This document shows, one piece after another, positions 9,276-52,484 of a stretch of 64,000 nucleotides of DNA; the stretch's first letter is position 1; each line of letters opens with the position of its first letter. A program made the position numbers and the translations under genes. The notes under the pieces are model-generated. The model had not been told where the DNA came from, did no database searches, and was given only the letters and a program-made list of their open reading frames with translations. This stretch comes from Candidatus Magasanikiibacteriota bacterium (lineage in GTDB: Bacteria; Patescibacteriota; Patescibacteriia; Magasanikbacterales; GWA2-37-8), in NCBI GenBank assembly GCA_030650025.1, contig JAUSEN010000016.1, positions 9,428 through 73,427 of the forward strand, in the 5' to 3' direction.

Positions 9276-9343
9276 CAGCCGCGCTTCAAAGGTCGTTCGC
9301 GACATCGCGAGAGACACTGCGCGGCATGATTTTGTCAAATCAT

Positions 9344-9940
9344 ATGAAATCGAATCAGAGTGTCAGAGGATTTACTTTAATTGAGGTCATGGTGGCCGTG
9401 GCGATATCGGCTTTGTTTTTTAGCGCGGTGGCGGAGATTTTTTTGACAAGCTTTAAAACCGCCGGGCTGGTGAGCGATGAGCTCGAAGGCCAGAGTGGCG
9501 CGCGGCGCGCGGTGAATGATTTTGTGAGCCAATTTAGGCTGGCTTCATACTCGAGCGCGGGTGACTACCCCCTGAAGACAGCCAATATTAATGAAATTGT
9601 TTTTTACGCCAATATTGATAAAGATAACTTAATTGAAAAAGTGCGTTATTATTTAACGGACACTACTTTATACCGAGGGGTAACTAAACCGATTGGCAAT
9701 CCCTTGTCGTATGGGTCAGCGAGTGAAACAGCGGAGACATTGCTCGAGGGGGTGCGGCTGAATGGGAACCCTTTATTTACTTATTACCCGGCGGGTATTG
9801 CCGAGGCGCTAGTCCAGCCAGTTGATATCACGACCGTGCGCTTGGCGGGCATTTATTTGCGCGTGGATAAGAAGCCAACGGCGTCGCCGACAGCTTGGAG
9901 CGTGGCGGCCCGGGCGCAGATGCGGAATCTTAAAAATTAA
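9344..9940 (+). CDS. type IV prepilin/pseudopilin (start moved to ATG 9344: MKSNQSVRG|FTLIEV)
   Basis: A classical prepilin leader appears only if the start is taken at the CATATG ATG (9344). The track's upstream ATG at 9326 lies inside the conserved leader palindrome. Confidence 0.75.
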   Translation: MKSNQSVRGFTLIEVMVAVAISALFFSAVAEIFLTSFKTAGLVSDELEGQSGARRAVNDFVSQFRLASYSSAGDYPLKTANINEIVFYANIDKDNLIEKVRYYLTDTTLYRGVTKPIGNPLSYGSASETAETLLEGVRLNGNPLFTYYPAGIAEALVQPVDITTVRLAGIYLRVDKKPTASPTAWSVAARAQMRNLKN

Positions 9941-9950
9941 TGCTTGCTTT

Positions 9951-11339: not shown

Positions 11340-12508
11340 ATGAGAGCGTTTAAAAATTTGTCTACGCTCATAACGCGCACATTTTTTTCTTGCCAGTCTA
11401 CATTTGGTGTTTCCACAATTTGATACAGAAAAGGAATTTTGAGACGTTGTTCAAAATAGTTCAAATTTTTAGATGGAGTGGTGTCGGATAATTTTACTTC
11501 TACCGCAAACCAGGGCTCACGATGGTGCGTAATTAAAAAATCAATTTCACGTCCGGCAACATCGCGCAAGAAAAATAATTCAACATTGTGGCCGTCGGCA
11601 TCTTTTAAATAATGTACGAATTTCAACAAATGCGAAGCGACAATATTTTCTAGCCGCGCCGCGCTGTTTTCTAAAACCGACCAATCCCATAAATATAGTT
11701 TAGGTTCTTTACGCAGACTTTTTATGGCGGTTGCTTGGTATGGATAAATGCGATAATGGTAGTAAAAACGTTCTAAAATTTCCACCCAGTGGGCGATAGT
11801 TTTGTGTGTTACCCCCAGATCTTCGCGCAAACTGTTAAGAGAAAAAAGCGCTCCTACTTTAGAAGGCAACAATTCGTTAAGAACCTGTAAGCTAGATAAA
11901 TCGCGAACTAATTCCACGTCGCGAATGTCATCTTCGATCAGACGATCCAAGCGTTCGTTCTGCCAACGCCGCAAATGGCGCTCATCTTTGGTAAATAAAG
12001 GTTCGGGGAATCCGCCCCATTTAAATAAACTATCATAAGCCGATCGAGAGTTGAGAGACGAAAAGCTAAGGCTCTTTCCGACAATGATGTTGGGAGTTAA
12101 ATTGAGCAGTTCGGCAATGGAAAAAGGGTGTAAGCGAAAATAATGGTAACGACCCATTAAGGAGTCGCCCCCGTGACGATACAAATCTAGGCGGGCGCTG
12201 CCGGTAATAAGTAAGGCATATTTTTGGTTGTTTGTGTCATACAGACCTTTTAAGTAATTTTTCCATTGGCGATATTTATGAAGTTCATCAAAAATAACGA
12301 GACGGGAATCGCCCATAAATTGTTGTTTTAATATTCTTTGACGGTCAGCACGGTTGTCCCAATTTAGATAATCGCTTGGTGTTAGGGCGTTGTTGCCAAT
12401 AGAATGGGCAAGCGTAGTTTTACCTACTTGTCGGGGGCCGCCCACAAATACCATTTTTTTGTCTAAATCATTGGCGATTATTTTTTCCAGATAGCGTTTT
12501 ATATGCAT
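11336..12508 (-). CDS. AAA+ ATPase (DUF4143-type)
   Basis: Walker A VFVGGPRQVGKTTLAH and overall architecture typical of the ATPase_AAA + DUF4143 family. Confidence 0.75.
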   Translation of the reverse strand: MHIKRYLEKIIANDLDKKMVFVGGPRQVGKTTLAHSIGNNALTPSDYLNWDNRADRQRILKQQFMGDSRLVIFDELHKYRQWKNYLKGLYDTNNQKYALLITGSARLDLYRHGGDSLMGRYHYFRLHPFSIAELLNLTPNIIVGKSLSFSSLNSRSAYDSLFKWGGFPEPLFTKDERHLRRWQNERLDRLIEDDIRDVELVRDLSSLQVLNELLPSKVGALFSLNSLREDLGVTHKTIAHWVEILERFYYHYRIYPYQATAIKSLRKEPKLYLWDWSVLENSAARLENIVASHLLKFVHYLKDADGHNVELFFLRDVAGREIDFLITHHREPWFAVEVKLSDTTPSKNLNYFEQRLKIPFLYQIVETPNVDWQEKNVRVMSVDKFLNALI

Positions 12509-12742: not shown

Positions 12743-13609
12743 ATGCAAATAGTCCGTAAAGCCGTGATTCCGGTGGCGGGGTTTGGTACCAGGTTCTTGC
12801 CGGTGACTAAAGCCAGCCCTAAAGAAATGCTCCCGGTGGTGGACAAGCCCGTGGTGCAATATGTGGTGGAGGAGCTGGTCGCGTCCGGAATTACGGATAT
12901 TATTTTGGTTACCGGCGCGAGTAAAAGGGCGGTGGAGGACCACTTTGATTATAATTTTGAACTGCAAGCCTGGTTAAAAAAACAAGGCAAGTTAAAAGAA
13001 GAGCAAGAAGTGCGCCACATTGCCGAGATGGCGAATTTTATTTATATCCGCCAAAAAGGGAACTATGGCAATGGCACGCCGTTAATTTGCGCGAAAGATG
13101 TGGTGGGGAACGAGCCGTTTGTTTATATTTGGGGAGATGAGTTTGTGGGAGCGAATCCGCCGAGAGTGAAACAATGCTTGGACGTTTTTTATAAATATGG
13201 CGACCCGGTGGTGGCGGGCGTGCGCGTGCCCAAAAAAGACGTTAGCAAATATGGAATTGTTGAGGTGACAAAATTGGAAAAGAATATATATCAAATTTTT
13301 TCTTTTATTGAAAAACCCACTCCGCGCGAGGCGCCCTCAAATTTGGCGGCTCTCGGCTGTTATATTTTAACGCCCGATGTTTTTGATAATATTAAAAATA
13401 TTAAACCTGGCAAAAGTGGCGAGGTGTGGATTGTGGATTTGGTCAGCCGGCTCATGAAAAAGCGTCCGTTTTACGCCTGCGAAATTGCCAACGGCACTTA
13501 CTATGACACAGGTTCTAAACTTGGTTGGTTAAAAGCGAACGTGGATTTTGCTTTGCGCGACCCGCAGTTAAAGACAGAGTTTAAAAAATATTTGCGAAGC
13601 GTGGTATGA
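12743..13609 (+). CDS. galU: UTP--glucose-1-phosphate uridylyltransferase
   Basis: N-terminal AVIPVAGFGTRFLPVTKASPKEMLPVVDKPVVQYVVEE is the GalU signature. Confidence 0.9.
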   Translation: MQIVRKAVIPVAGFGTRFLPVTKASPKEMLPVVDKPVVQYVVEELVASGITDIILVTGASKRAVEDHFDYNFELQAWLKKQGKLKEEQEVRHIAEMANFIYIRQKGNYGNGTPLICAKDVVGNEPFVYIWGDEFVGANPPRVKQCLDVFYKYGDPVVAGVRVPKKDVSKYGIVEVTKLEKNIYQIFSFIEKPTPREAPSNLAALGCYILTPDVFDNIKNIKPGKSGEVWIVDLVSRLMKKRPFYACEIANGTYYDTGSKLGWLKANVDFALRDPQLKTEFKKYLRSVV

Positions 13610-14997
13610 AAATGGGGAATCGATTTTTAGCGATATTTTTAATAGCAAGCATTTTCTTGACTCTCGGTTTTGGTTGTAAAGGTTTATCGACGGCCGAGGT
13701 CGCCGCGACTAAGCCGGTAACTTTGGAAATGTGGACGTCCTACGATGATGTGGACGCGCTCCAAGGTATTCTTACTAAATATAGAGCGCTCCGGCCTTAT
13801 TTAAAAGTCAACATTCGGCAAATGTCGCCGAGCGATATGTATACCCGTTTGGTAGAAGAGTTGGCCGAGGATCGCGGGCCGGATATAATCTCGATTAATA
13901 GCCGCACGCTCGGCCTATATGTAAGCAAGCTTTCGGCTCTGCCGCCTACCGCCAAGGACATAACGGTTTTAGTAGAAAAGGGAACGCTCGGAACCAACAC
14001 CACGGTGTCGGAACATACGGTGAATTTGCCAACCGCGGCCCAGATTGATGATAACTTTGTGCAGGCGGTGGGCAAAAGCGTGGTTCGGGGCGGGAGCGCT
14101 TACGGCCTGCCATTGTCTTTGGATACGATGGCGATTTATTATAATAAGGACTTGTTGGACCGCTCGGGCGTGCCCGAGCCGCCGAAGACTTGGGACGATT
14201 TCCAAGTGGCGGCCAAGAAAATTACTAAATATAACCGCGCCGACAACAGCATTATTCAGGCCGGAGCGGCCCTCGGCACTGGCAATAATGTCCCGAATAG
14301 CGATGATTTGCTTTATATTTTATTAAAACAGAGTGATATAGATTTTACCAGCCGCTCGGGCCAGGCGGTATTTAACATGCCGCCCTCTGGCAACCGCCGC
14401 GAAGAGCCGCCGGCAGTTTCGGTGATTAATTTCTACACGGATTTTGCCAACCCAGGGCGCGACACTTATAGCTGGAGCGAGAATATGCCGAACGCTCTCG
14501 ATGCCTTTGTAAACGGGCAGGTTGGCTTTTTCTTTGGGTTTAGCTATTATAACAGTATTATTCGGGGGCGGGCGCCACAGCTTAACTACCGAATTTTGCC
14601 GCTTTTGCAGTTGAACCCGGACAAACCAGTGAACGCGGCTAATTTCTCGATGCTCTCGGTGGTAAACAAGAGCAAAAATAAGGACGCGGCCTTTGCCTTG
14701 ATCCAGTACCTTACTTATTCCGAAGCCACTAAAGATTATTTAGCCGCTACCAAGCGGCCAACCGCCGTGCGCTCTTTAATCGCCGCCCAAAAAGAAGACG
14801 CTAGTTTGGAGCCGTTTGTGAGCCAGGTTTTGGTGGCCGAAAGCTGGTACACGGGCAGTAATTATTCGGCCGCGACCAAAGCGCTGGTTGATATGTTTCA
14901 CGAATGGCTCTTGCCGCCGCCCGATCCGAACCGCCCCGAGCAATGGCGGGGCGATGTCTTGAACCGCGCGGCCGCGAAAATTAACCAGACAATTTAA
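13606..14997 (+). CDS. ABC transporter extracellular solute-binding protein (family 1, sugar-type)
   Basis: Signal peptide/lipobox (LGFGCKG); size and composition fit family 1 SBPs. Confidence 0.65.
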   Translation: MKMGNRFLAIFLIASIFLTLGFGCKGLSTAEVAATKPVTLEMWTSYDDVDALQGILTKYRALRPYLKVNIRQMSPSDMYTRLVEELAEDRGPDIISINSRTLGLYVSKLSALPPTAKDITVLVEKGTLGTNTTVSEHTVNLPTAAQIDDNFVQAVGKSVVRGGSAYGLPLSLDTMAIYYNKDLLDRSGVPEPPKTWDDFQVAAKKITKYNRADNSIIQAGAALGTGNNVPNSDDLLYILLKQSDIDFTSRSGQAVFNMPPSGNRREEPPAVSVINFYTDFANPGRDTYSWSENMPNALDAFVNGQVGFFFGFSYYNSIIRGRAPQLNYRILPLLQLNPDKPVNAANFSMLSVVNKSKNKDAAFALIQYLTYSEATKDYLAATKRPTAVRSLIAAQKEDASLEPFVSQVLVAESWYTGSNYSAATKALVDMFHEWLLPPPDPNRPEQWRGDVLNRAAAKINQTI

Positions 14998-15181: not shown

Positions 15182-15871
15182 ATGAGTTTGAAAAAATTAT
15201 TACTAGGGGCGAGCCTCGGAATGATGGTGTTAAGTTTGGCAATGCCAACCGCTCCGGCTCTAGCTGATAACAAGTTTTGTTTTTGCGGAACTGATTTAAA
15301 AAAATTTCCGGAGACGGGCGATTTGAATGATTCGCAAAAATATAATTCTTGGTGCTTTCCTAACCAGATCCCCGAAGAAAAGTGCACGGCTACAATTTAT
15401 AAAGCCGAGGCACGGGCCCAGGCGCAGTTAGTGAAGTGCGACGTTTTTACGACGCAACAACAATGCAAACAGGCGGAAACAGACTGGAATACGGCATTTA
15501 CCATACTCTATAATTCGCGCCAGAACGAGGTTTTTAAAAATACGATGCAGGGGTCGGGCGGGCGAGCCTTGCCGGATTGCGTTTTGAAGGACGATTTGAC
15601 CGAAGACTGCCGCGATATCACGGTCTTGGTCGCTTTGGTAGTTAATTATGGGCGGGTAAGCCTTGGCATTATTGGGGCGTTTGCTTTGTGCTTTTTTATT
15701 TACGGCGGGTTTATTTTAATAATGTCGAGCGGCAACCCGGAAAAGGTTAAGAAAGGCACGGACACGATGCTGGCCGCGCTAATCGGCCTTTTTATCGCCT
15801 TTGTGGCTTACTTATTTATCCGCTTTTTGGGCACGGCCATTGGCATCAAAGAGCAATTTAGGTTGTTTTAG
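15182..15871 (+). CDS. VirB2/TrbC-like pilin-module protein, paralog 1 (signal peptide + Cys-containing ectodomain + 2-TM C-terminal module)
   Basis: C-terminal ...FIYGGFILIMSSGNPEKVKKGTDTMLAALIGLFIAFVAYLF matches the module shared by 11 paralogs in this window. Confidence 0.6.
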   Translation: MSLKKLLLGASLGMMVLSLAMPTAPALADNKFCFCGTDLKKFPETGDLNDSQKYNSWCFPNQIPEEKCTATIYKAEARAQAQLVKCDVFTTQQQCKQAETDWNTAFTILYNSRQNEVFKNTMQGSGGRALPDCVLKDDLTEDCRDITVLVALVVNYGRVSLGIIGAFALCFFIYGGFILIMSSGNPEKVKKGTDTMLAALIGLFIAFVAYLFIRFLGTAIGIKEQFRLF

Positions 15872-15875
15872 TTTT

Positions 15876-16868
15876 ATGATGAAGAAGTTTTTGATTTTAT
15901 TAGCGGTGCTAGGAGCTTTTTTATTATACCGGCCTTCTCCGGCGCAGGCGGCGGCGTGTGTTTGCGACCAAGGGGTACAAGAAGGAGTTCCAACAAATAA
16001 CTCTTGCCTTACCTTGACCCAGAAAGGCAATTTGACTGGTTGCAAATGGGTAGAGCAGGAGACAAATTATTGCGTTTGTAAAACCGTCATTGCCTCGCCA
16101 GACGGCCTTAATGATGCGTCGTGCACGCAAAAACTGTATTATGCAAGCGCATTTTACCAGGGGAGATTACTAGGAATAGCTTGCGACGCTGACTTTAACC
16201 CCGCCCTGCAAGTTGGCTGTGATGATTTTTGCGAATCCTTGGGGCCCAATTCTAAAAAAATATATTGCGGCAACGAAGCGGGGAAAGATGAAGTCGATAA
16301 TACGCCGATTAACCAAGCCAAGGGCTGTGCGCCCATTCACTGCTGGTGTGGCAACCCGGCTGGGTATTGCACGCACGATACCGTAAAGCCCAATGGCGGC
16401 AGTTTTTACGACAGACCTTCTTGCAATAAATATTGCGATGATAAAAATGTGAATGGCGAGACGGGGTGGAAGTCCACTCACTGGGATGATAAGTATACTA
16501 ATTATTATAAAATTCCGGTGTCTAATAACGGCTGTTTGTACGAGATCCCCCGGCCAAAAATTAGTCCTTATGATTTTACCGGTAATATAAAGCTGAACGC
16601 CATAAACTTAAACCCGCTTACCAAATTTCGCGGACCCCAGGATTTTCTCGGCAATGCTATTCGCGTAATTCTGTCTCTCATTGGCGCCTTGGTGTTGGTC
16701 ATGTATATTTATGGCGGGCTCCTCTGGATGACAGCGGCGGGCAATAGCGAACAAACCGGCAAAGCCAAACAGATTTTGGTGTGGTCCACGCTCGGGGTGG
16801 CGGTCATGCTCTCGAGCTATGTCTTGGTAACATTCTTGTTTAGAGACGTGCTTAAGTTAACGATTTAA
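15876..16868 (+). CDS. pilin-module paralog 2 with ~280-aa Cys-rich ectodomain
   Basis: Start reassigned to MMKKFLILLAVLG (15876). About 26 Cys in the ectodomain; C-terminal IYGGLLWMTAAGNSEQTGKAKQIL... module. Confidence 0.6.
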   Translation: MMKKFLILLAVLGAFLLYRPSPAQAAACVCDQGVQEGVPTNNSCLTLTQKGNLTGCKWVEQETNYCVCKTVIASPDGLNDASCTQKLYYASAFYQGRLLGIACDADFNPALQVGCDDFCESLGPNSKKIYCGNEAGKDEVDNTPINQAKGCAPIHCWCGNPAGYCTHDTVKPNGGSFYDRPSCNKYCDDKNVNGETGWKSTHWDDKYTNYYKIPVSNNGCLYEIPRPKISPYDFTGNIKLNAINLNPLTKFRGPQDFLGNAIRVILSLIGALVLVMYIYGGLLWMTAAGNSEQTGKAKQILVWSTLGVAVMLSSYVLVTFLFRDVLKLTI

Positions 16869-16870
16869 TT

Positions 16871-17785
16871 ATGAAGAAATTTTTGGTAGTAGCGGTGATG
16901 GCACTCGGCATAGCCGGAATTTGGGGCGTAGCGACTGCCCGCGCGCAAGTAGGCTGCGCGGATAACCGCGGGTGCGCGCCAGGCGATGTTTGTATTAATA
17001 ATGTTTGCAAACCGGCAGTGGCCGATGGCCAGGTGTGTGTTAACAGCCAAGAGTGTTTGTCGGGGCGGTGCGTGAGTGGAATTTGCAAATCACCGGGCCA
17101 AGTGGGCGAGGCCTGTACCGAGGATGGCGAGTGTGTTACGAACAATTGTTTTGACGGTTTGTGCGGCCAGAAAGCCGAATGCAACGCGGATGGTGATTGC
17201 GGCGCGGGGAGGACGTGCACGCAGAATAAGTGCGTGGAAACATTTTCGACCGAGCCGCCGGCTCCGCCTCCGTCAGGGGATAGTGGCGGGCTAAGCCAGT
17301 GCCAAGATGAAAAAGGCTGCCCGGCTGGGCAAGTCTGTGTTGACCATGTCTGCCGCGTGCCTGTGGGGACTTCTGATTCTGGCAAACCGGTAGTAAATAG
17401 GTATTGTTTAAAAGACGACATGTGCCAGCCGATGGATCCGGTGAACGGCTGCCCGGCTGGCTGGGCGCCTAAACCCAAGTGCCCCTGCCCGAATAGCGAC
17501 AGCGGCGCGGAGTGCATTCCGCTCGAGAATCCGCTCGCCGGCAACACCGTGGATATTTTTGGAATCTTCGGCCGGATCTTGCGCGTGGCGCTTGGCTTAA
17601 TTGGTTCCCTTACGCTTTTAATGCTGGTGTGGGGAGGGTTCCAATGGATGATGTCGGGCGGGAGCCCGGAGCGCATCAAGAAGGGTACGGACACGATGCT
17701 CTGGGCCGCGATTGGAGTGGTACTAGTATTCGCCAGCTATTTCATTTTGAGTAATTTTGTAGACTATTTAACTGGCGTTCAATAG
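16871..17785 (+). CDS. pilin-module paralog 3 with five tandem 4-Cys modules
   Basis: Repeats such as CADNRGCAPGDVCINNVC, CVNSQECLSGRCVSGIC and CTEDGECVTNNCFDGLC; C-terminal VWGGFQWMMSGGSPERIKKGTDTML module. Confidence 0.6.
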   Translation: MKKFLVVAVMALGIAGIWGVATARAQVGCADNRGCAPGDVCINNVCKPAVADGQVCVNSQECLSGRCVSGICKSPGQVGEACTEDGECVTNNCFDGLCGQKAECNADGDCGAGRTCTQNKCVETFSTEPPAPPPSGDSGGLSQCQDEKGCPAGQVCVDHVCRVPVGTSDSGKPVVNRYCLKDDMCQPMDPVNGCPAGWAPKPKCPCPNSDSGAECIPLENPLAGNTVDIFGIFGRILRVALGLIGSLTLLMLVWGGFQWMMSGGSPERIKKGTDTMLWAAIGVVLVFASYFILSNFVDYLTGVQ

Positions 17786-17790
17786 GAATT

Positions 17791-17801
17791 TGTGGTATAA
17801 T
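17791..17801 (+). promoter_or_regulatory. extended -10 promoter (tgtggtataat) for paralog 4
   Basis: TGnTATAAT lies about 55 nt upstream of the strong SD gggaggtga and ATG 17854. Confidence 0.4.
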
Positions 17802-17853
17802 AGATTTTAGCTATGTTGACGTTATTATTAAACATAGGAAGGGAGGTGACACT

Positions 17854-18252
17854 ATGATTAAAATGCAGAAATTTCTCGCTCCAATCATGATGTCTTTAAC
17901 ACTCGTTAGCGCCATGCCAGCGATCGCGGCGACAGACACTCTTAAGGATACGGATCTCTTACCGCCGAAGATAGGAGAAACGACCGGCCTTGGCACTGGT
18001 GATATCCGTTTGACCGTCGCGAAAATTATTCGCGTCGCTATGGGCCTCCTTGGTATCGTGGCCGTGGTTATTATCTTGATTGGCGGCTTTACTTGGATGA
18101 CCGCGGGCGGCAACGAAGAAAAGGTAGGCGAAGCCAAGAAATGGATTTTCGCCGGTATTATTGGTCTCGCGATTATTCTTTCCGCTTACGCGATTGCCAG
18201 CTTCGTTATTACGCAATTGGTGGACGCGACTACGCAAGCCGGAGTCATTTAG
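17854..18252 (+). CDS. pilin-module paralog 4 (short form)
   Basis: Signal peptide, short ectodomain, ILIGGFTWMTAGGNEEKVGEAKKWIFAGIIGLAIILSAYAIASFV. Confidence 0.65.
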   Translation: MIKMQKFLAPIMMSLTLVSAMPAIAATDTLKDTDLLPPKIGETTGLGTGDIRLTVAKIIRVAMGLLGIVAVVIILIGGFTWMTAGGNEEKVGEAKKWIFAGIIGLAIILSAYAIASFVITQLVDATTQAGVI

Positions 18253-18413
18253 TAGTCTCCAATTTATTAAGTTTCCATTGGTTAGCAGGGGGAGAAGAGA
18301 AACGACTAACTTGGTCAGCTTGCCAAGCCGAGCGCAGATAGAGATATATGCACTTCGCTTGGTAAGCTACCACCCCCTGCTCTGCCAATAAATTATTTTG
18401 AATTACGAACAGT

Positions 18414-18833
18414 ATGGCGAAAATATTTTTTAAAAAATCTGCTTGGGCGGGTATAGCGGCGGGCATCGCACTGCTCACAGCTTTAGTGGTTCCAGCAGAT
18501 TCAGCCAGGGCAATTTCGGATTTGGAATTGGGGCTGGATTATGGCACGTTTACCGGCTTAAGCTATAGCGACCCGAGAGCCGTGGCCGCGGCCATTATTC
18601 GGGTGGCTCTCGGGCTCCTCGGCACCGTGGCGTTAATAATTATTTTGATTGGCGGATATACTTGGATGACCGCGGGCGGCAACGAAGAAAAAGTAGAAGA
18701 AGCCAAAAAATGGATTAAAGCGGGCGTGATTGGCCTCGCGATTATACTTTCGGCTTTCGCGATTACCAGTTTTGTGGTGCAACAGTTGGTGCGAGCCACG
18801 CAAGAGGCGAGTAACGTAAATTTGGCGCAATAA
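18414..18833 (+). CDS. pilin-module paralog 5 (short form)
   Basis: ILIGGYTWMTAGGNEEKVEEAKKWIKAGVIGLAIILSAFAI; closely related to paralog 4. Confidence 0.65.
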   Translation: MAKIFFKKSAWAGIAAGIALLTALVVPADSARAISDLELGLDYGTFTGLSYSDPRAVAAAIIRVALGLLGTVALIIILIGGYTWMTAGGNEEKVEEAKKWIKAGVIGLAIILSAFAITSFVVQQLVRATQEASNVNLAQ

Positions 18834-18839
18834 TTTTTT

Positions 18840-19463
18840 ATGTTTAAAGTTAAAGCGTTAAGCGGAATTAGTGCCTTAATTTTAAGCTGGTCATTTTTAG
18901 TTCCCCTCCCGGCCTTGGCTGACAGCTATGGCATTAGCCAAACGGCAGACCAAGTAAACATTGAGAACCCAAATTTATTGCCAAAAACCGTGGCGGGAGA
19001 GTCCACGGTTCCAGAAGTTATTGGCGCGATTATTGGGTACGCACTGTCCCTCGTTGGCATAGTTTTTTTCGGCCTGATGCTTTACGCGGGCGTGCGCTGG
19101 ATGATTGCCATGGGCAACACGGAGGACGTGGAAAAGGCCAAGCAAACTTTGGAAGCGGCCGCCATTGGTTTAGTAATAGTTTTGGCGGCTTATGTTTTGA
19201 CTAGCGAGATATTTAAGGTTTTGAGCCCAGCCACCGCGCCGACGGATTCGGCGCAGTTAGACGCCAAGTTAGGGCAGAAATTAGGCGAGCCAGTCGATTG
19301 CACTAACGGCCAGAAGGAATTACTAGAGTCCGATGTGGATTGCGGGGGAATTTGCTCTAAGAAATGCGAAGCCGGAAAGCATTGTTCCGAAGGCAAGGAT
19401 TGCCTGTCCGGAGCTTGCCTCGCGTCTCGAGATCCAAACAATCCCGGTTTTATTTGCCAATAA
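18840..19463 (+). CDS. pilin-module paralog 6 with Cys-rich domain C-terminal to the TM hairpin
   Basis: [40 protein letters not shown] followed by [40 protein letters not shown]. Confidence 0.6.
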
Positions 19464-19481
19464 TTGTGAGTAGCGCTTTAT

Positions 19482-19886
19482 ATGATTATGATAAGAAAAG
19501 TTTTAAATAATATTTTTTTAACCGGGACGCTTTTGCTCTCTGGTTTAATTTTTACTAATTTTGTTTTTACTAATTTTGTTAGCGCGGTTGGTTTGTATGA
19601 CGCCGGCGGGAAGTTGGAACAGGCGGTCGGGGCGGATTCGCAGGTAGGTTTGCGCGGTGATTTAACCTCCACTATTACCACGGTAGTAACGGCAGTGTTA
19701 GCCGTTGTGGGCACAGTTTTTTTGCTTCTCACGATTTACGCTGGCATTCTTTGGATGACCGCGGCGGGTGCGGAAGACCAAATAGAAAAGGCGCAAAATA
19801 TAATTAAAGCCACGGTAATTGGTTTGTTTATAACCATGGGCGCGTACGCGATTACGGCTTTTGTGGGCGGGCGGTTAAGCGGCTAA
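19482..19886 (+). CDS. pilin-module paralog 7
   Basis: IYAGILWMTAAGAEDQIEKAQNIIKATVIGLFITMGAYAITAFV. Confidence 0.65.
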   Translation: MIMIRKVLNNIFLTGTLLLSGLIFTNFVFTNFVSAVGLYDAGGKLEQAVGADSQVGLRGDLTSTITTVVTAVLAVVGTVFLLLTIYAGILWMTAAGAEDQIEKAQNIIKATVIGLFITMGAYAITAFVGGRLSG

Positions 19887-19888
19887 GT

Positions 19889-20419
19889 ATGAGACGAGCC
19901 CAAGTAATTTTAATGCTGGTGGCGGTAGGCGGTATCACTTTTGGGGCGGTTACTTTTGGACAGGCTTTAGGGTTTCAGGATTCGGTTGGCCTGGTAACGA
20001 ACGCGGTGGGGCCAGCGACTAAGGTTGGTTTGGAAGGAAATTTAACCACGTCAATTGCGACAGCAGTTAAAATAGCGCTCGCCTTAGTCGGAACAATTTT
20101 TTTGGGTCTCACGGTTTACGCCGGGATTCTGTGGATGACGGCATCGGGAGCGGAAGACAAAATCGAAAAAGCGCAAGGCATAATTAAAGCCACGGTGATA
20201 GGCCTCGGCATCACTTTTGGAGCCTACGCGATTACAGCTTTTGTGGGCAGTAAATTAGGGGGCAGTGGCGCCCCTACCCCGAGCCAAGTTATTTCTTGCA
20301 CGGAAGCGCCCAATAATGGCAACTGCGTTACCGACAATGGCGCCCCTTGCCCGGGCGGCACCAAAGAAATCCAGGGGACTGATTGCGCCCCAGGCAAGCT
20401 CTGTTGCGCCCCGCTCTAA
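19889..20419 (+). CDS. pilin-module paralog 8 with short C-terminal Cys-rich tail
   Basis: VYAGILWMTASGAEDKIEKAQGIIKATVIGLGITFGAYAITAFV followed by ...CTEAPNNGNCVTDNGAPCPGG...CAPGKLCCAPL. Confidence 0.6.
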   Translation: MRRAQVILMLVAVGGITFGAVTFGQALGFQDSVGLVTNAVGPATKVGLEGNLTTSIATAVKIALALVGTIFLGLTVYAGILWMTASGAEDKIEKAQGIIKATVIGLGITFGAYAITAFVGSKLGGSGAPTPSQVISCTEAPNNGNCVTDNGAPCPGGTKEIQGTDCAPGKLCCAPL

Positions 20420-20451
20420 AAATGAAAAAATTATTTTAAATAGTAAAGGGT

Positions 20452-20958
20452 ATGATTAAAAATTTTTTAGTAAGTTTTATAATGATATTAGCCCTGATGC
20501 CCGGGGTCGCGTTGGCCGCGCCTAATATTGGTTTGGGTGAAGATGGGTTAGCGACAGGCGTCGCGGCGGGCGCGGGGTATGCCCCAGCCACGGACACGAC
20601 GCTGTCGGAATCGGTGGGTAAGGTCATTCGGGTGATTTTGTCCATGGTGGGAACAATTTTTCTGGCGCTAACGGTTTACGCCGGAATTCTGTGGATGACC
20701 GCGGCGGGAGCGGAAGACCAAATAGAAAAGGCGCAAAATATTATCAAGGCCGCGTCGCTTGGTTTAATAATCGTGATTGCCGCTTATGGCATAACCACTA
20801 TAGTGGTTGCGGCCATGACATTTGCCTCGCAACCAAATACCGGAGCAACTGTCGGGGGCAAGCCCAGCCAATCATTTTGGCAACAGCAAGGGCAGTATTG
20901 GCAAGACTGGGCTAACAATTGGAAAATTTCTACCAAGAGTATGTTTGGAATTAAATAG
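20452..20958 (+). CDS. pilin-module paralog 9
   Basis: VYAGILWMTAAGAEDQIEKAQNIIKAASLGLIIVIAAYGITTIV; about 85-90% nt identity to paralogs 7 and 8 across the module. Confidence 0.6.
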   Translation: MIKNFLVSFIMILALMPGVALAAPNIGLGEDGLATGVAAGAGYAPATDTTLSESVGKVIRVILSMVGTIFLALTVYAGILWMTAAGAEDQIEKAQNIIKAASLGLIIVIAAYGITTIVVAAMTFASQPNTGATVGGKPSQSFWQQQGQYWQDWANNWKISTKSMFGIK

Positions 20959-20962
20959 ATCG

Positions 20963-21052
20963 CGATTGCGCCGCGCTTCAAAGGACCCGCCCGCCTCGCT
21001 ACGCGAAGCGTTGCGGGCAGGCACTGCGCGGCACGATTTTGTTAAATCGCAT
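20963..21052 (+). promoter_or_regulatory. conserved structured 5' leader (variant B) ending in palindrome CGATTTTgttAAATCG + CATATG
   Basis: Shares gccgcgcttcaaagg...cactgcgcggca(c/t)gattt with leaders at 9278-9343 and 22911-22961; contains a nested GC palindrome homologous to 54606-54645. Confidence 0.55.
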
Positions 21053-21526
21053 ATGAAAAAACTTTTTGCGTATCAACTAGTGGCAGTATTCGTAGCGTTC
21101 CTCGCTTTGTCTTTTGTGGTAATAACCCCGGCGCGGGCGGAGGACACCAGCTCTGATATCCGGAAACAACTCGAGGCGGCGGGTGGCACGCAAGGCGCGA
21201 ATTATGGGGAAGCGGTTGACCCGCGAGTCACCGCGGCTTTGATTATTCGGGCGATGCTCGGCATGACTACGATTATTTTGATTATTTTAAATATTTACGC
21301 GGGAATCACTTGGATGACAGCCGGCGGAAACGAGGAAAAGGTGGACAAAGCCAAAACGACAATTAGAAATTCCACTATCGGACTGATTATTGTTTTGTCC
21401 GCTTACTCGATAACTGTTTTTGCCACTTACATCGCGCGGGGCCAGCAGTTTGGCCTCGGCGGCGGGCCTAACGCTTTATCGCGCGGTTTAGGCAATTTCT
21501 TCCAGTCGCGGCAGGGTCCGAATTAA
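21053..21526 (+). CDS. pilin-module paralog 10 (start moved to CATATG ATG 21053: MKKLFAYQLVAVFVAF...)
   Basis: The track ORF begins at 20822 but its first 77 aa are the translated GC-rich leader. A plausible signal peptide begins at 21053. C-terminal IYAGITWMTAGGNEEKVDKAKTTI module. Confidence 0.6.
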   Translation: MKKLFAYQLVAVFVAFLALSFVVITPARAEDTSSDIRKQLEAAGGTQGANYGEAVDPRVTAALIIRAMLGMTTIILIILNIYAGITWMTAGGNEEKVDKAKTTIRNSTIGLIIVLSAYSITVFATYIARGQQFGLGGGPNALSRGLGNFFQSRQGPN

Positions 21527-21554
21527 TTTAAGAAATAGAAAAGAGAGAAATTTT

Positions 21555-21590
21555 GATTTAAAAAAATGGCTCCCGAGAGTGGGAGCTTTT
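21555..21590. terminator. bidirectional intrinsic terminator (gctccc-gagagt-gggagc between A and T tracts)
   Basis: aaaaaaatggctcccgagagtgggagcttttttat. Confidence 0.6.
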
Positions 21591-21607
21591 TTATCAAGAT
21601 AACTAAA

Positions 21608-22315
21608 ATGCAGATTTCAGTAATTATACCAGCCTACAACGAAGAAAAAACTCTAGCCAAAACGCTGGAGTCTTTAATAAAGCAAACCACCGATCGCGCG
21701 TTTGAAGTGATTGTCGTAAATAACGCCTCGACGGATAAAACGAGAGTAGTCGCCGAGTTTTTTTTAGATAAATTAGATTTAAAAATAATAGACGAGCCGA
21801 ATAAAGGGCGCGGGGCGGCGCGAGCCGCCGGGTGCGCGTCTGCCGCCGGAGAAATTTTTTTATCAACGGACGCGGATACGATTTTGCCTAGCAATTGGAT
21901 TGATGTTTTGATAAAGCCAGTTCATTCCGGGGTGGTTGGCGTGACTGGTACCGCGAAAATAGAGGATTGTTCATTTTTTGTTAATATTTTTTTCAAACTT
22001 TTTCAACCGGCGTTAACTAAAATTTCGCGGTGGTTACTTGGCTATTATTGGCTGGCTGGTTTTAGCTCGAGCGTGACGAGGGGTGCGTACGAGAAAGCGG
22101 GCGGTTTTGACAAAGCGCTCAATTCTTTAGAAGATACGGACCTAGCGAGAAGAGTTTCTCGGCAGGGCAAAATTGTGTGTGTTTGGAATTGTCCGGTAGT
22201 CTTTTCTGGCCGGCGATTTAAAAAGGGGGTGTTGCGCGGGCTGTTATCGTACCTGCCGCCGTTTATTATGTTTTTGTTTAAGTCGCGGCGTGTTAATTTA
22301 TCAGATATTCGCTAG
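21608..22315 (+). CDS. family 2 glycosyltransferase
   Basis: MQISVIIPAYNEEKTL...VIVVNNASTDKT...DADT: GT2 signature. Confidence 0.75.
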   Translation: MQISVIIPAYNEEKTLAKTLESLIKQTTDRAFEVIVVNNASTDKTRVVAEFFLDKLDLKIIDEPNKGRGAARAAGCASAAGEIFLSTDADTILPSNWIDVLIKPVHSGVVGVTGTAKIEDCSFFVNIFFKLFQPALTKISRWLLGYYWLAGFSSSVTRGAYEKAGGFDKALNSLEDTDLARRVSRQGKIVCVWNCPVVFSGRRFKKGVLRGLLSYLPPFIMFLFKSRRVNLSDIR

Positions 22316-22506
22316 TATAAACCCTGCACCACAAGGGTGCAGGGCACCCTGAACTCTTGTAGTTCAGGGTGAACCGTAAAATGTAAGTTGATGATTAAAA
22401 TAGTTGGGTGCCCAATGGGAATTGTCTCCCTACGGGAGATCCCCCGTAGGGGGAAACCCATTTTGTACCAACTATAAAAAAAGTCGGATTGTTTATTATT
22501 GAATTG

Positions 22507-22580
22507 GGGTGCCCAATGGGAATTGAACCCATATTGTCGGTACCACAAACCGACGTAATAACCATTATACCATGGGCACC
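22507..22580 (-). tRNA. tRNA-His(GUG)
   Basis: Reverse complement folds as acceptor ggtgccc/gggcacc, anticodon stem tcggt/accga with loop ttGTGgt, T arm gggttcaattccc. Confidence 0.7.
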
Positions 22581-22638
22581 ATGAGTAAAATCCGCTCTAG
22601 TATAGCGCCAAAATTGCTTTTAGTCAATGTGAGGGAGT

Positions 22639-22712
22639 GTCTCCTCGAGAGGAATCGAACCTCTATACTTAGCTTAGAAGGCTAATGCTCTATCCATTGA
22701 GCTACGAGGAGA
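22639..22712 (-). tRNA. tRNA-Arg(UCU)
   Basis: Reverse complement: acceptor tctcctc/gaggaga, D arm gtagctcaatggatagagc, anticodon stem ttagc/gctaa with loop ctTCTaa, T arm gaggttcgattcctc. Confidence 0.75.
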
Positions 22713-22910
22713 AAAAATAGCTTATCCCGCCACAGCGGGACCCCGCCTCGCGGCGGTGGGAAGGCTACTGTTTTATCCGCTCCGACGCCCCGCTTTGCGG
22801 GGGTCGGAGCCCCGACTTTACGTCGGGGTTAAACTATGGGATCAAGTGGCTCTATGGTAATCAATTTGGCCTTAAAAATCAAGTTATGGTATAATTTAAG
22901 AGTAACTAAT

Positions 22911-22961
22911 ATTTGCGCCGCGCTTCAGAGGACGTTGCGCGGCATGATTTCGTCAAATCAT
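22911..22961 (+). promoter_or_regulatory. conserved structured 5' leader (variant C) with palindrome TGATTTcgtcAAATCA + CATATG, preceded by an extended -10 (tggtataat at ~22888)
   Basis: ttgcgccgcgcttcagaggacgttgcgcggcatgatttcgtcaaatcatATG. Confidence 0.55.
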
Positions 22962-23324
22962 ATGTACAAGAAGATAAAAGTACTGTCGACTGTTTTTATA
23001 ACTTTTTTGGTTACTTGGCCAATGACAGCCCTGGCGCAATATGGTTTGAACGAAGCGGCCGGGAAAATGGGGTTTGATAGAAGCAAGAATGTTTACGGAG
23101 TGATTAGCCTCGTGGTGGGGGCAGCGTTGGCGTTTACCGGACTAGTGTTTTTTGGAATGATGATGTACGCTGGTGTGCGCTGGATGACCGCGCGCGGCAA
23201 CGAAGATTTGGCAGAGAAGGCCAAACAAGCCCTCGCGAATTCTACGATTGGTTTTGTAATCGTGGCGCTTTCTTACGCCCTGACGCGGTTTGTGTTTGGA
23301 GCGCTTAATTTGCCGACATTTTAA
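22962..23324 (+). CDS. pilin-module paralog 11 (start moved to ATG 22962: MYKKIKVLSTVFITFLVTWPMTALA)
   Basis: C-terminal MYAGVRWMTARGNEDLAEKAKQALANSTIGFVIVALSYALTRFV; the track ORF starts upstream inside the leader. Confidence 0.6.
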   Translation: MYKKIKVLSTVFITFLVTWPMTALAQYGLNEAAGKMGFDRSKNVYGVISLVVGAALAFTGLVFFGMMMYAGVRWMTARGNEDLAEKAKQALANSTIGFVIVALSYALTRFVFGALNLPTF

Positions 23325-32310: not shown

Positions 32311-32348
<38 letters not shown>

Positions 32349-33172: not shown

Positions 33173-33408
33173 AGCGGACTTGAGAAATCGAGCACGCTAG
33201 GATTGGGACGGATATAGCAAAAAGTAAACAATCATTAAAGATGAGCAGAGTCATCGAAATATTAACAGCCATTCAAAAAATGCTACCTTGCTTTGCAGTA
33301 ATGCAAAGAATAATCCGGTCATAGCTTATGAGAGACTATACGCTATGCTCCTCCGACGAAACTCGGAGGAAGAAGATTTAGTCCTTCGTCATTAAACAGG
33401 AAACGAAG
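33173..33408 (+). mobile_element. group I-like intron (ORF-less), inserted after the U of GGU|AGCG (E. coli ~L1931, helix 69/70 region)
   Basis: The conserved ccgtcctaaggt.agcgaaattccttgtcgg is interrupted by 236 nt; the 5' exon ends in U and the insert ends in G. Confidence 0.6.
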
Positions 33409-33430
33409 AGCGAAATTCCTTGTCGGGTAA

Positions 33431-34573: not shown

Positions 34574-34636
34574 GTACGATGTCGGCTCATCGCATCCTGG
34601 GGGTGAAGAAGCTCCCAAGGGTTTGGCTGTTCGCCA

Positions 34637-34688
<52 letters not shown>

Positions 34689-50397: not shown

Positions 50398-50406
50398 TAA
50401 TCAACT

Positions 50407-51631: not shown

Positions 51632-51634
51632 TTT

Positions 51635-52462: not shown

Positions 52463-52484
52463 TTATTTATTATAACTTTTCGAT

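What the first reader, a model, noticed from the sequence alone, without database searches (positions are those of the whole stretch)
15182..23324. Tandem array of 11 paralogs sharing a VirB2/TrbC-like two-helix C-terminal module with hypervariable ectodomains
Eleven consecutive same-strand genes, interrupted only by a GT2 gene and two tRNAs, all end in the same roughly 60-aa module: hydrophobic helix, (Y/W)GG.xWM(T/M)AxGN.E...KAK loop, second hydrophobic helix. This is the signal-peptide plus two-TM hairpin architecture of conjugative-pilus subunits (the T4SS-pilin-like family expanded in CPR). The remaining portions diverge completely and range from ~40 to ~280 residues. Paralogs 2 and 3 have heavily Cys-rich ectodomains; paralogs 6 and 8 instead carry Cys-rich domains C-terminal to the membrane hairpin. 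No T4SS machinery genes (VirB4, VirD4, VirB6) are in the window. A conserved module with a diversified exposed domain, in tandem and with recent duplications, suggests a variable surface-display or adhesin repertoire, for example for host-cell attachment by an episymbiont.
Basis: partly seen in the sequence, partly recalled or inferred. Interest (0 to 1): 0.7.

Follow-up and report, generated by a model that had tools for sequence, protein, structure and literature searches.

The report
Conserved VirB2-like pilin gene array
Eleven neighbouring genes in an uncultured Magasanikbacteria (CPR/Patescibacteria) genome encode secretion-system-type pilin proteins: one highly conserved probable main subunit plus relatives carrying fast-evolving outer domains. 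This kind of array is already described in these bacteria, and here it proves to be an old, ordered set rather than a shuffling repertoire.

Summary
Eleven same-strand genes (15182-23324) each carry a signal peptide and an ~80-aa two-helix module. Ten of 11 reach Pfam's threshold for PF18895 (T4SS_pilin); paralog 8 misses it by 1 bit. No VirB4/VirB6/VirD4 lies in the 64 kb. GenBank already names these proteins 'pilin', and tandem 'VirB2 arrays' of 2-11 genes in Patescibacteria are published (Wang 2023; Quiñonero-Coronel 2025).

New here: the array is a fixed feature of Magasanikbacteria. Forty-three relatives carry 8-13 such genes at the same site (GalU-SBP-[array]-rpsO-NYN-pnp). The order of nine classes is conserved: A-B-C-D-E-F-G-H-I. 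The window adds duplicates of D and F. Each class keeps its architecture: A-C have N-terminal Cys-rich domains, D is minimal, and E-H have C-terminal extensions. Ectodomain sequences have diverged to background identity.

Class D (paralog 4) looks like the major subunit. Its module is 79% conserved. It alone has a strong Shine-Dalgarno site and often its own promoter. A very stable hairpin follows it in 44/44 arrays.

So the 'variable adhesin repertoire' reading is only partly supported. A major pilin plus accessory, domain-bearing pilins fits better. This is a new member of a known kind, of moderate interest.

The parts
15182..15871 (+). Paralog 1, class A pilin (229 aa): signal peptide, ~110-aa ectodomain with 7 Cys, hairpin module at nt 15596-15844
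   Evidence: PF18895, 35.9 bits; conserved Cys framework in 11 homologs; AF2 model
15876..16868 (+). Paralog 2, class B pilin (330 aa): ~220-aa ectodomain with 18 Cys, module at nt 16614-16853
   Evidence: 30.7 bits; the ectodomain has no homolog other than itself; NCBI names it 'pilin'
16871..17785 (+). Paralog 3, class C pilin (304 aa): ~195-aa ectodomain with 26 Cys in small repeated disulfide-type modules (DUF7107/EB-like), module at nt 17534-17773
   Evidence: (PF18895 40.6 bits; DUF7107 33.8 bits)
17791..17853 (+). Promoter-like TGnTATAAT (-10 at 17796-17801) and strong Shine-Dalgarno AGGAAGGGAGGTGA (17836-17849) ahead of class D
   Evidence: D18; SD >=5 nt in 84% of first-D genes against 0-8% in other classes; 63/68 nt identical in L170 although dS is ~0.6
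17854..18252 (+). Paralog 4, class D minimal pilin (132 aa, no Cys), proposed major subunit; module at nt 17983-18222
   Evidence: 40.1 bits; module 66-95% identical to orthologs, median 79%; 3332 homologs; hairpin helices 51-82 and 88-131; omega 0.028
18253..18413 (+). Intergenic spacer that folds into a long stable hairpin after class D
   Evidence: -58.3 kcal/mol, z = -5.9; a comparable structured spacer follows the first D gene in 44/44 arrays, median z -7.2
18414..18833 (+). Paralog 5, duplicate of class D (139 aa), without SD
   Evidence: (75% to paralog 4)
18840..19463 (+). Paralog 6, class E (207 aa): module at nt 18987-19226 followed by a 78-aa C-terminal extension with 8 Cys
19482..19886 (+). 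Paralog 7, class F (134 aa), module at nt 19641-19880
19889..20419 (+). Paralog 8, class F duplicate (176 aa): 52-aa C-terminal extension with 6 Cys
   Evidence: 25.6 bits, just under the gathering score; 72% to paralog 7
20452..20958 (+). Paralog 9, class G (168 aa): 45-aa C-terminal extension without Cys
20966..21055 (+). Structured leader (two hairpins) ending at the start codon of paralog 10
   Evidence: D13, D20; z = -3.5
21053..21526 (+). Paralog 10, class H (157 aa)
   Evidence: (PF18895, 28.9 bits)
21566..22315 (+). GT2 glycosyltransferase interrupting the array; present at this place in only 9 of 80 related loci, so probably not a core part
22505..22711 (-). tRNA-His (22505-22579) and tRNA-Arg (22639-22711) between classes H and I
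22866..22964 (+). Promoter-like site (TTGGCC-18-TATAAT with TG, 22866-22895) and a second copy of the structured leader (22913-22964) ahead of paralog 11
22962..23324 (+). Paralog 11, class I minimal pilin (120 aa from the MYKKIKV start)
   Evidence: (34.0 bits)

Best explanation
The locus is the chromosomal pilin set of the type IV secretion system (T4SS) of a Candidatus Magasanikbacteria bacterium. It holds nine ancient classes of VirB2-like hairpin pilins, which make eleven genes here after duplication of classes D and F.

Proposed mechanism: each protein is exported by Sec and its signal peptide is removed. It then sits in the membrane as a helical hairpin with both ends outside the cell. 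Class D (paralog 4) is small, Cys-free and extremely conserved. It has its own promoter and strong ribosome-binding site and is followed by a stable hairpin. I propose it is the abundant major subunit. Classes A-C carry N-terminal disulfide-rich domains, and classes E-H carry C-terminal extensions. I propose these are low-abundance accessory pilins that use the same assembly module to place fast-evolving domains on the outside of the structure. A VirB4/VirB6-type machine encoded elsewhere in the genome would assemble them into a surface filament or short conduit used for contact with a host cell.

Shown: family membership, hairpin fold, signal peptides, conserved order and architecture, and the expression signals of class D.

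Inferred: the both-ends-out topology, polymerisation, dependence on the T4SS, the major/minor division of labour, and the role in host contact.
For: Family:
- PF18895 scores 25.6-40.6 bits; ten of 11 are at or above the 26.6 cutoff.
- NCBI already names these very proteins 'pilin'.
- PF04956 TrbC gives sub-threshold hits for #3-5.
- NCBIfam's Mycoplasma ICE 'pilin-like conjugal transfer protein' gives E of about 1e-7 for the best paralogs (1.9e-7 to 2.1e-3 across the eight that match), below its cutoff.
- hhalign against genuine VirB2/TrbC from Ti-type plasmids aligns helix-loop-helix in register, including the W-M motif: P = 1.9e-4 and 4e-4.

Fold and topology:
- AF2 gives a hairpin with helices 51-82 and 88-131 at pLDDT >90.
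- All 11 have an AxA-type signal peptide and two hydrophobic segments.
- Cys-rich domains occur either before or after the hairpin, which implies that both termini are extracytoplasmic.

Ancient ordered set:
- 43 related genomes carry 8-13 such genes at the same site, in the order A-I.
- In 21 nine-gene arrays, positions 1-7 match the window class 21/21 times.

Major-subunit signature of D:
- Its module is 79% identical across genomes whose PNPase is 72.5% identical.
- Residues 33-120 are invariant against L170 at dS of ~0.6; omega is 0.028.
- An SD of >=5 nt occurs in 84% of first-D genes against 0-8% in other classes.
- A structured spacer follows D in 44/44 arrays.

Display role:
- Ectodomains are at background identity although their length and Cys class is conserved.
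- In other Patescibacteria the same module is fused to 2276-3265-aa proteins with Big_5 and TIG Ig-like domains.

Machinery elsewhere:
- Three genomes that hold the syntenic pnp locus are listed as VirB4-positive in Table S1 of PMC12102498: L052 and L021, which carry a full array, and L058, which has a single pilin gene there.

Precedent:
- An essential array of VirB2-like pilins lies in the Southlakia T4SS locus.
Against: - No T4SS machinery lies within 15 kb upstream or 40 kb downstream. The link to a T4SS therefore rests on family name and literature.
- PF04956 is not reached, and the profile-profile probability is only 35-48%.
- Fold searches return only generic helical hairpins, ATP synthase subunit c among them.
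- The profile search against PDB sequences found nothing.
- No pilus of this type has been seen in any Patescibacterium.
- Ectodomains of 100-220 aa, or of thousands of residues in other lineages, would be hard to fit at every position of a VirB2-type filament.
- Poly-module proteins with 4-17 hairpins in one chain exist in the family. A classical pilin model does not predict these.
- The loop is not clearly positive, so the positive-inside rule does not settle the topology.
Confidence: 0.5

Rival explanations
1. Membrane-anchored display proteins. The hairpin is only a stable two-helix membrane anchor, and none of the proteins polymerises or needs a T4SS. The array would be a family of cell-surface proteins, some with adhesive or binding ectodomains and some bare.
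For: - No T4SS gene is nearby. The conserved neighbours are GalU, an orphan lipoprotein SBP and type-IV-pilin-like genes.
- The module is fused to giant Ig-domain proteins in other lineages.
- Fold searches cannot tell it from any helical hairpin.
Against: - A simple anchor would not need 79% identity over 80 residues (above PNPase), nor omega of 0.028.
- Classes D and I have almost nothing to display.
- The G-G/A...W-M-T-A-x-G-N motif at the loop is conserved in all classes and aligns with the VirB2 W-M.
- The strong-SD plus hairpin signature points to a bulk structural subunit.
Confidence: 0.2
2. Envelope-embedded ring or channel. The hairpins pack side by side into a hetero-oligomeric ring or short tube inside the membrane and wall, as the core channel of the T4SS or on their own. 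This is comparable to rings of hairpin subunits, and it is not an extended pilus.
For: - Poly-module proteins with 4, 8 and up to 17 covalently linked hairpins behind one signal peptide exist in the family.
- Two-module ORFs occur at array position 1 in four relatives.
- The closest structural matches include ATP synthase c subunits.
- The nine classes keep a fixed order and a roughly fixed number.
- Gram-positive T4SSs normally lack pili.
Against: - The match to c subunits is not significant (E >1).
- The very different expression signals of D and the others argue against an equimolar complex.
- Copy number varies from 8 to 13.
Confidence: 0.2
3. Variable adhesin or antigenic-variation repertoire. 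The paralogs are alternative versions expressed or exchanged to change the exposed surface.
For: - Ectodomains are essentially unalignable between orthologs, and their lengths vary widely (class C 42-226 aa; C-terminal extensions up to 411 aa).
- Copy number varies through duplications of D, E and F.
- Published speculation exists for Patescibacteria, by analogy with Bartonella and Anaplasma.
Against: - Classes are one-to-one positional orthologs in a fixed order across an order-level clade.
- Every gene is complete with its own signal peptide.
- There are no long flanking repeats, silent cassettes or invertible elements.
- Omega is 0.09 in the one ectodomain that could be tested.
- No same-species strains were available to show presence/absence variation.
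Confidence: 0.07

Closest known systems
VirB2-like pilin arrays of Patescibacteria (Southlakia epibionticum ML1 T4SS locus, Wang et al. 2023, PMC10633639; survey by Quiñonero-Coronel et al. 2025, PMC12102498)
   Same: Both are tandem sets of sequence-divergent, structurally alike PF18895/VirB2-like pilins in a monoderm CPR genome. [quoted passage not shown] The window's array of 11 fits this description.
   Different: Here the array is not in or near a virB4 cluster. It sits at a fixed housekeeping site (GalU-SBP ... rpsO-NYN-pnp) throughout Magasanikbacteria. I did not find the following in those papers: nine positionally orthologous classes, class-specific N- or C-terminal Cys-rich domains, and a major-subunit signature on one class. 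Two pairs here exceed the published maximum identity of 54% (75% and 72%).
Conjugative/T-pilus pilins VirB2, TrbC and TraA (Pfam PF04956) of diderm T4SSs
   Same: Both have a cleaved leader, an amphipathic helix plus two hydrophobic helices joined by a short loop, and both termini outside. The W-M motif at the end of helix 1 aligns.
   Different: - PF04956 is below threshold (best 17.8 against 27.9 bits).
- The loop is 7-8 residues longer and is acidic/basic (GNEEKVxEAKK).
- The organism is a monoderm.
- No adjacent virB1/virB3/virB4, unlike the plasmid loci fetched.
- There are many paralogs with fused domains.
- tblastn against 72,556 plasmids found nothing.
Mbov_0395 family pilin-like conjugal transfer protein of Mycoplasma ICEs (NCBIfam NF045849)
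   Same: This was the only NCBIfam family to match the pilin paralogs: 8 of the 9 scanned matched, with E from 1.9e-7 to 2e-3 over the whole hairpin. It belongs to a monoderm (MPF-FATA-type) transfer system, the class from which the Patescibacteria T4SS is said to derive.
   Different: All scores are below the equivalog cutoff (at most 30.6 against 40 bits). The Mycoplasma proteins are single-copy and ~80 aa, without ectodomains.
Major/minor pilin organisation of type IV pili and type II secretion pseudopili (analogy, not homology)
   Same: One abundant, conserved, separately expressed major subunit is paired with a conserved ordered set of low-abundance subunits. These share the assembly module and carry extra domains for tip or adhesive functions. 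A stable stem-loop after the major subunit gene is a classical device in pilus operons (established knowledge).
   Different: The module is unrelated (a hairpin, not an N-methylated single helix) and so is the assembly machine. True type-IV-pilin-like genes with N_methyl motifs lie upstream in the same window (7479-9940).
VirB2 paralog families of Bartonella and Anaplasma
   Same: Multiple tandem VirB2 paralogs occur in a host-associated bacterium. cites them as the model for variation.
   Different: Those are thought to serve antigenic variation. Here the paralogs are stable orthologous classes under purifying selection.

Membership tests
Pfam PF18895 T4SS_pilin | Match to the family HMM at or above the gathering score (26.6 bits) | tested here: met
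   Ten of 11 paralogs score 26.9-40.6 bits; paralog 8 scores 25.6
Pfam PF18895 T4SS_pilin | Signal peptide followed by two hydrophobic helices forming a hairpin | tested here: met
   AxA-type sites and two hydrophobic segments in all 11; AF2 hairpin with pLDDT >90
TrbC/VirB2 conjugative pilins (PF04956) | Match to PF04956 at or above its gathering score (27.9 bits) | tested here: not met
   Best is 17.8 bits (E 0.004) for paralog 4, with weaker hits for #3 and #5 and none for the others
TrbC/VirB2 conjugative pilins (PF04956) | Detectable homology to genuine VirB2/TrbC by profile-profile comparison | tested here: inconclusive
   hhalign against 8 annotated VirB2/TrbC proteins gives P 1.9e-4 (probability 47.5%, 57 columns) and P 4e-4 (34.9%, 64 columns), in register
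TrbC/VirB2 conjugative pilins (PF04956) | Fold specifically similar to solved conjugative pilins | tested here: inconclusive
TrbC/VirB2 conjugative pilins (PF04956) | Encoded within a T4SS gene cluster (next to virB1/virB3/virB4) | tested here: not met
   No such Pfam domains in any window ORF, in contrast to the plasmid loci
TrbC/VirB2 conjugative pilins (PF04956) | Polymerises with phospholipid into an extracellular pilus | not testable with these tools
   Needs multimer modelling or experiment
Patescibacterial VirB2-like pilin arrays (PMC12102498, PMC10633639) | Two or more VirB2-like/PF18895 genes in tandem or separated by one non-pilin gene, in a Patescibacteria genome | tested here: met
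   11 genes. The genome is placed in Ca. Magasanikbacteria by PNPase relatives and NCBI names
Patescibacterial VirB2-like pilin arrays (PMC12102498, PMC10633639) | Location near virB4, as for the Southlakia array and ring 5 of that paper's Fig. S9 | tested here: not met
   No VirB4 within the 64-kb window. VirB4 is reported elsewhere in three related genomes
Patescibacterial VirB2-like pilin arrays (PMC12102498, PMC10633639) | Essential for epibiotic growth | not testable with these tools
   Uncultured organism
Antigenic-variation pilin cassette systems | Silent or partial cassettes, shared recombination repeats, or strain-to-strain shuffling | tested here: not met
   All genes are complete. 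The only repeats are the coding modules themselves. Positional orthology holds across 43 genomes
NCBIfam NF045849 (Mycoplasma ICE pilin-like protein) | Score at or above the equivalog cutoff (40 bits) | tested here: not met
   At most 30.6 bits. The hits are consistent but sub-threshold, in 8 of 9 pilin paralogs scanned

The most novel reading that the evidence does not exclude
A heteropolymeric VirB2-type surface filament in a monoderm bacterium. It would be built from one major pilin (class D) and eight conserved accessory pilin classes that graft rapidly evolving disulfide-rich domains onto its outside or tip. That would be a T4SS pilus organised like a type IV pilus, with major and minor pilins. 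It would be encoded away from its machine, beside type-IV-pilin genes, and in this genome partly co-regulated with one of them through a shared structured RNA leader. The family's poly-hairpin proteins would then be pre-linked stretches of such a filament.
Probability: 0.25. Interest if true: 0.7.

Novelty: new member of a known kind. Interest (0 to 1): 0.4.

Why it matters
What the essential T4SS of Patescibacteria does, and whether it builds a pilus, is an open question. This locus does not answer it, but it narrows the search in three ways.

- It names one gene class (D) as the candidate bulk subunit to look for in proteomes and in cryo-ET of Magasanikbacteria-rich samples.
- It shows that the paralogs are stable, specialised classes rather than interchangeable variants.
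- It shows that the hairpin module is used widely as a carrier for extracellular domains, from 40 aa up to Ig-domain giants.

The conserved site and order also give a practical marker for comparing host-contact surfaces between Magasanikbacteria lineages.

Tried and rejected
- A profile search of PDB sequences with the class D family returned no hit at E <= 10.
- A search with the class B ectodomain alone in the 5.8-billion-protein set returned only the protein itself.
- tblastn of class D against 72,556 plasmids found no match at E <= 1.
- Strain-level comparison was not possible. The genome and metagenome scans gave no same-species relative: the best PNPase match is 77% and the best class D match is 70%. 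The only close relative is a 1.2-kb contig (L170), which is itself at dS ~0.6-1.8.
- The source genome's own VirB4 could not be looked for, because only the window and +-10-kb loci are readable.
- The shared leader before paralogs 10 and 11 was sought in relatives by pattern and by eye and not found.
- I considered whether GT2 is a core part of the array, for example for pilin glycosylation. I rejected this because it is present in only 9 of 80 loci and once inverted.
- I considered that multi-module hits were gene-call fusions. I rejected this for P0136 and P0139, which have one signal peptide and no internal starts.

Full report
**What is there.** Between 15182 and 23324 the + strand carries eleven ORFs. 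After correction of three start codons the genes are 15182-15871, 15876-16868, 16871-17785, 17854-18252, 18414-18833, 18840-19463, 19482-19886, 19889-20419, 20452-20958, 21053-21526 and 22962-23324. Each has an N-terminal signal-peptide-like segment with an AxA-type site, followed by two long hydrophobic segments. An ~80-residue stretch aligns without internal gaps in ten of them; paralog 1 carries a 3-residue insertion. It has invariant glycines and a nearly invariant W-M and Y: consensus IRVAL.L.G....L...YAG..WMTA.GNEE..EKAK..I.A..IGL.I...AY.IT.FV. Pairwise identity in this module is 21-54%, except for paralogs 4/5 (75%) and 7/8 (72%). An HMM built from the eleven modules finds exactly these eleven ORFs in the 64-kb window. 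The array is interrupted by a GT2 glycosyltransferase gene (21566-22315) and by tRNA-His and tRNA-Arg on the opposite strand.

**Family.** Ten of the eleven proteins reach the gathering score of Pfam PF18895, 'Type IV secretion system pilin'. Paralog 8 misses it by one bit. Three of them give sub-threshold hits to PF04956 TrbC/VirB2. In NCBIfam the only family the pilin paralogs match is NF045849, the 'Mbov_0395 family pilin-like conjugal transfer protein' of Mycoplasma ICEs: eight of the nine paralogs scanned match it, with the best E-values near 1e-7, always below its cutoff. To test the VirB2 relationship directly I retrieved annotated VirB2/TrbC genes from Ti-type and other MPF-T plasmids and aligned them. 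I then compared profiles. The class D family against VirB2 gives P = 1.9e-4 (probability 47.5%), and the eleven window modules against VirB2 give P = 4e-4 (34.9%). In both, amphipathic helix, helix 1, the W-M motif, the loop and helix 2 are in register, and the window family has a loop 7-8 residues longer. AlphaFold2 models paralog 4 as a helical hairpin (helices 51-82 and 88-131) with pLDDT above 90 in the module. Fold searches only return generic hairpins and cannot discriminate. A profile search of PDB sequences finds nothing. I conclude that membership in PF18895 is established and that distant homology to VirB2/TrbC is likely but not proven here. GenBank already names paralogs 1 and 2 'pilin [Candidatus Magasanikbacteria bacterium]' on a 130,414-bp contig. 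A profile of the module finds 78,560 cluster representatives at E <= 0.001 in the 1.84-billion-protein library, so the family is very large.

**Organism and surroundings.** The nearest PNPase sequences (at most 77% identity) come from Candidatus Magasanikbacteria and unnamed Patescibacteria MAGs. The window also has a 23S rRNA gene of 3867 nt with a group I intron, which is typical of CPR. No ORF in the window matches VirB4, VirD4, VirB6 or other T4SS machinery.

**What is already known.**
- Wang et al. [quoted passage not shown]
- Quiñonero-Coronel et al. 2025 used PF18895 and PF04956 and reported 441 'VirB2 arrays' of 2-11 pilin genes in 383 Patescibacteria assemblies. They found an average identity of 25% and speculated about adaptation to different hosts.
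- A 2025 review calls the six Southlakia pilins 'structurally conserved, but sequence-divergent' and raises the possibility of a pilus in a monoderm.

The finding as stated is therefore a further member of a published kind.

**What the comparison with relatives adds.** I fetched 80 genomic loci around PNPase and scanned them with the module HMM. Forty-three relatives with enough upstream sequence carry 8-13 pilin genes on the same strand just upstream of rpsO-NYN-pnp. The flanks are syntenic: GalU-SBP-[array]-rpsO-NYN-pnp. In metagenome loci centred on the class D gene, 17 of 28 long loci extend this to pilin(N_methyl, ~600 aa)-pilin(N_methyl, ~200 aa)-unknown(~500 aa)-GalU-SBP-[array]. When each module is assigned to its most similar window paralog, the arrays read A B C D E F G H I in nearly every genome. 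The window's paralogs 5 and 8 are extra copies of D and F. In the 21 relatives with exactly nine genes, positions 1-7 match the corresponding window class in 21 of 21 cases. Positions 8 and 9 are less clear-cut. Identity to the positional ortholog is 44-58% for most classes and 79% for D, which exceeds identity between paralogs within the window. The duplications that made the nine classes therefore predate the radiation of this clade.

**Architecture is conserved by position**:

| Class | Added part | Typical size and Cys content |
|---|---|---|
| A | N-terminal ectodomain | ~126 aa, ~7 Cys |
| B | N-terminal ectodomain | ~217 aa, ~15 Cys |
| C | N-terminal ectodomain | ~92 aa, range 42-226; the window's copy is at the long end, with 26 Cys in DUF7107/EB-like repeats |
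| D | none (minimal) | ~134 aa in total, no Cys |
| E | C-terminal extension | ~69 aa, 8 Cys |
| F | C-terminal extension | ~47 aa, ~4 Cys |
| G | C-terminal extension | ~37 aa |
| H | C-terminal extension | ~26 aa |
| I | none (minimal) | - |

The ectodomain sequences themselves have diverged to background. Orthologs show ~23% global identity, the same as non-orthologous pairs, and BLAST finds only a handful of hits. The class B ectodomain of the window has no detectable relative in 5.8 billion proteins. Class A keeps a recognisable Cys framework (CFC...C...C...C...C...PxC...CRDI) in its eleven closest homologs. Its AF2 model is a small alpha/beta domain of moderate confidence with no informative structural match. 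Cys-rich, presumably disulfide-bonded domains occur on either side of the hairpin, and the N-terminal ones follow a signal peptide. Both termini are therefore most likely outside and the loop inside, which is the topology known for VirB2/TraA (inference plus established knowledge).

**Selection.** The one close relative available is a 1.2-kb contig, L170. Its class D protein is 95% identical, and residues 33-120 are invariant although dS is about 0.6. Omega is 0.028 in the D module, 0.12 in the rest of D, 0.044 in the C module and 0.09 in the C ectodomain. This single comparison gives no sign of positive selection. The ectodomain simply evolves about twice as fast and by indels.

**Class D stands apart in its expression signals.**
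- A Shine-Dalgarno match of at least 5 nt (typically GGAAAGGGGGTGA) precedes 84% of the first D genes, against 0-8% of genes of any other class.
- Many D genes also have a TGnTATAAT element 45-55 nt upstream.
- In the window these are at 17796-17801 and 17836-17849. The 68-nt spacer is 63/68 identical in L170, better than synonymous sites in the flanking genes.
- In all 44 arrays the first D gene is followed by a 61-266-nt spacer that folds far better than shuffled sequence (median z -7.2).
- In the window this is 18253-18413 (-58.3 kcal/mol, z = -5.9 with dinucleotide shuffles).

A small, extremely conserved, separately and strongly expressed subunit followed by a stem-loop, inside an ordered set of weakly translated relatives, is the classical layout of a major pilin among minor pilins (analogy from established knowledge of pilus operons).

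**Most likely mechanism.** I propose that class D is the bulk subunit of a VirB2-type assembly. The other eight classes would be accessory subunits that share its assembly module and expose variable domains. The structure would be built by a VirB4/VirB6 machine encoded elsewhere. Three genomes that hold the syntenic pnp locus are VirB4-positive in Table S1 of Quiñonero-Coronel et al.: those of L052 and L021 carry a full array, and that of L058 has a single pilin gene at this site. Two metagenomic contigs support the idea that the module serves as a carrier for surface domains. There a PF18895 module heads proteins of 3265 and 2276 aa with Big_5 and TIG Ig-like domains. Polymerisation, T4SS dependence and a role in host contact are inferences. 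I give this explanation a confidence of about 0.5.

**Rivals.**
- The hairpin might be only a membrane anchor (0.2). The extreme conservation of D and the conserved loop motif argue against that.
- The hairpins might form a ring or short channel in the envelope rather than a long pilus (0.2). This is suggested by family members with 4, 8 and up to 17 hairpins in one polypeptide behind a single signal peptide, and by two-module ORFs at position 1 in four relatives.
It cannot be fully excluded without within-species data.

**Verdict.** The phenomenon is already described and annotated, so this is a new member of a known kind. I did not find the following in the literature searched: the fixed nine-class order, the class-specific domain architecture, the separation from the T4SS cluster at a conserved housekeeping site next to type-IV-pilin genes, and the major-subunit signature of class D. 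These make the locus moderately interesting (0.4) and give concrete targets for experiments on the still unexplained T4SS of Patescibacteria.

Noticed in passing
window 9276-9346, 20966-21055, 22913-22964: Three copies of a structured leader, each ending at a start codon. P1 (GCCGCGC/GCGCGGC) encloses a variable inner hairpin. P2 is AUGAUUU-YGUY-AAAUCAU; it is CGAUUU/AAAUCG in copy 2, a compensatory change. One copy precedes a type-IV-pilin-like gene (true start probably 9344, MKSNQSVRGFTLIE). The other two precede VirB2-like paralogs 10 and 11, which suggests co-regulation of the two pilin types. It matches no Rfam family and was not found in related genomes.
   Followed up: partly
window 7479-11339: Type-IV-pilin-like genes with N-terminal methylation motifs (598 aa with a CarboxypepD_reg domain; 204 aa), plus a 505-aa protein with no Pfam hit. 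Together with GalU and an SBP they form a conserved neighbourhood upstream of the pilin array in many Magasanikbacteria-like contigs.
   Followed up: partly
window 13606-14997: Orphan extracellular solute-binding protein (SBP_bac_1) with a lipoprotein-type signal. It overlaps the GalU stop codon, has no ABC permease beside it, and is the conserved immediate upstream neighbour of the array in 39 of 80 related loci.
   Followed up: partly
L162:10001-19795 and L166:5145-11972: Giant proteins (3265 and 2276 aa) that begin with a PF18895 pilin module and continue with Big_5 and IPT/TIG Ig-like domains. These are pilin-module/adhesin-like fusions in other Patescibacteria.
   Followed up: partly
P0136, P0139, P0141 (protein library); L048, L050, L051, L054 position 1: 'Poly-pilin' proteins with 2 to 17 hairpin modules in one polypeptide. 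In the two multi-module proteins read in detail (P0136, P0139) the modules follow a single signal peptide, are joined by 30-50-aa linkers and have no internal start signals.
   Followed up: partly
window 31093-35235: The 23S rRNA gene spans 3867 nt against a 2925-position model, with a group I intron at 33419-33631. 5S rRNA lies at 35127-35235, and there is no 16S gene in the window.
   Followed up: no
window 22388-22424 vs 22489-22525; 21566-22315: A partial copy of the 3' end of tRNA-His lies 101 nt from the real gene, among several GC-rich hairpins. The adjacent GT2 gene is present at this place in only 9 of 80 relatives and is inverted in one. This suggests a variable insertion next to the tRNA.
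   Followed up: partly
window 11336-12508 (- strand): An AAA_14/DUF4143 ATPase gene on the opposite strand interrupts the otherwise conserved unknown(505 aa)-GalU adjacency. It has a counterpart in only one related locus, at 24% identity.
   Followed up: no
window 49198-53219: A gene set resembling ATP-citrate lyase or citryl-CoA synthetase/lyase: ATP-grasp_2 + Citrate_bind, CoA_binding + Ligase_CoA, and a citrate synthase C-terminal domain. A methyltransferase gene lies in between.
   Followed up: no
L016, L039, L049, L058: Four related genomes have only a single pilin gene upstream of rpsO-NYN-pnp, in spite of at least 6 kb of upstream sequence (10 kb in three of them). The main block has been lost or moved in these lineages.
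   Followed up: no
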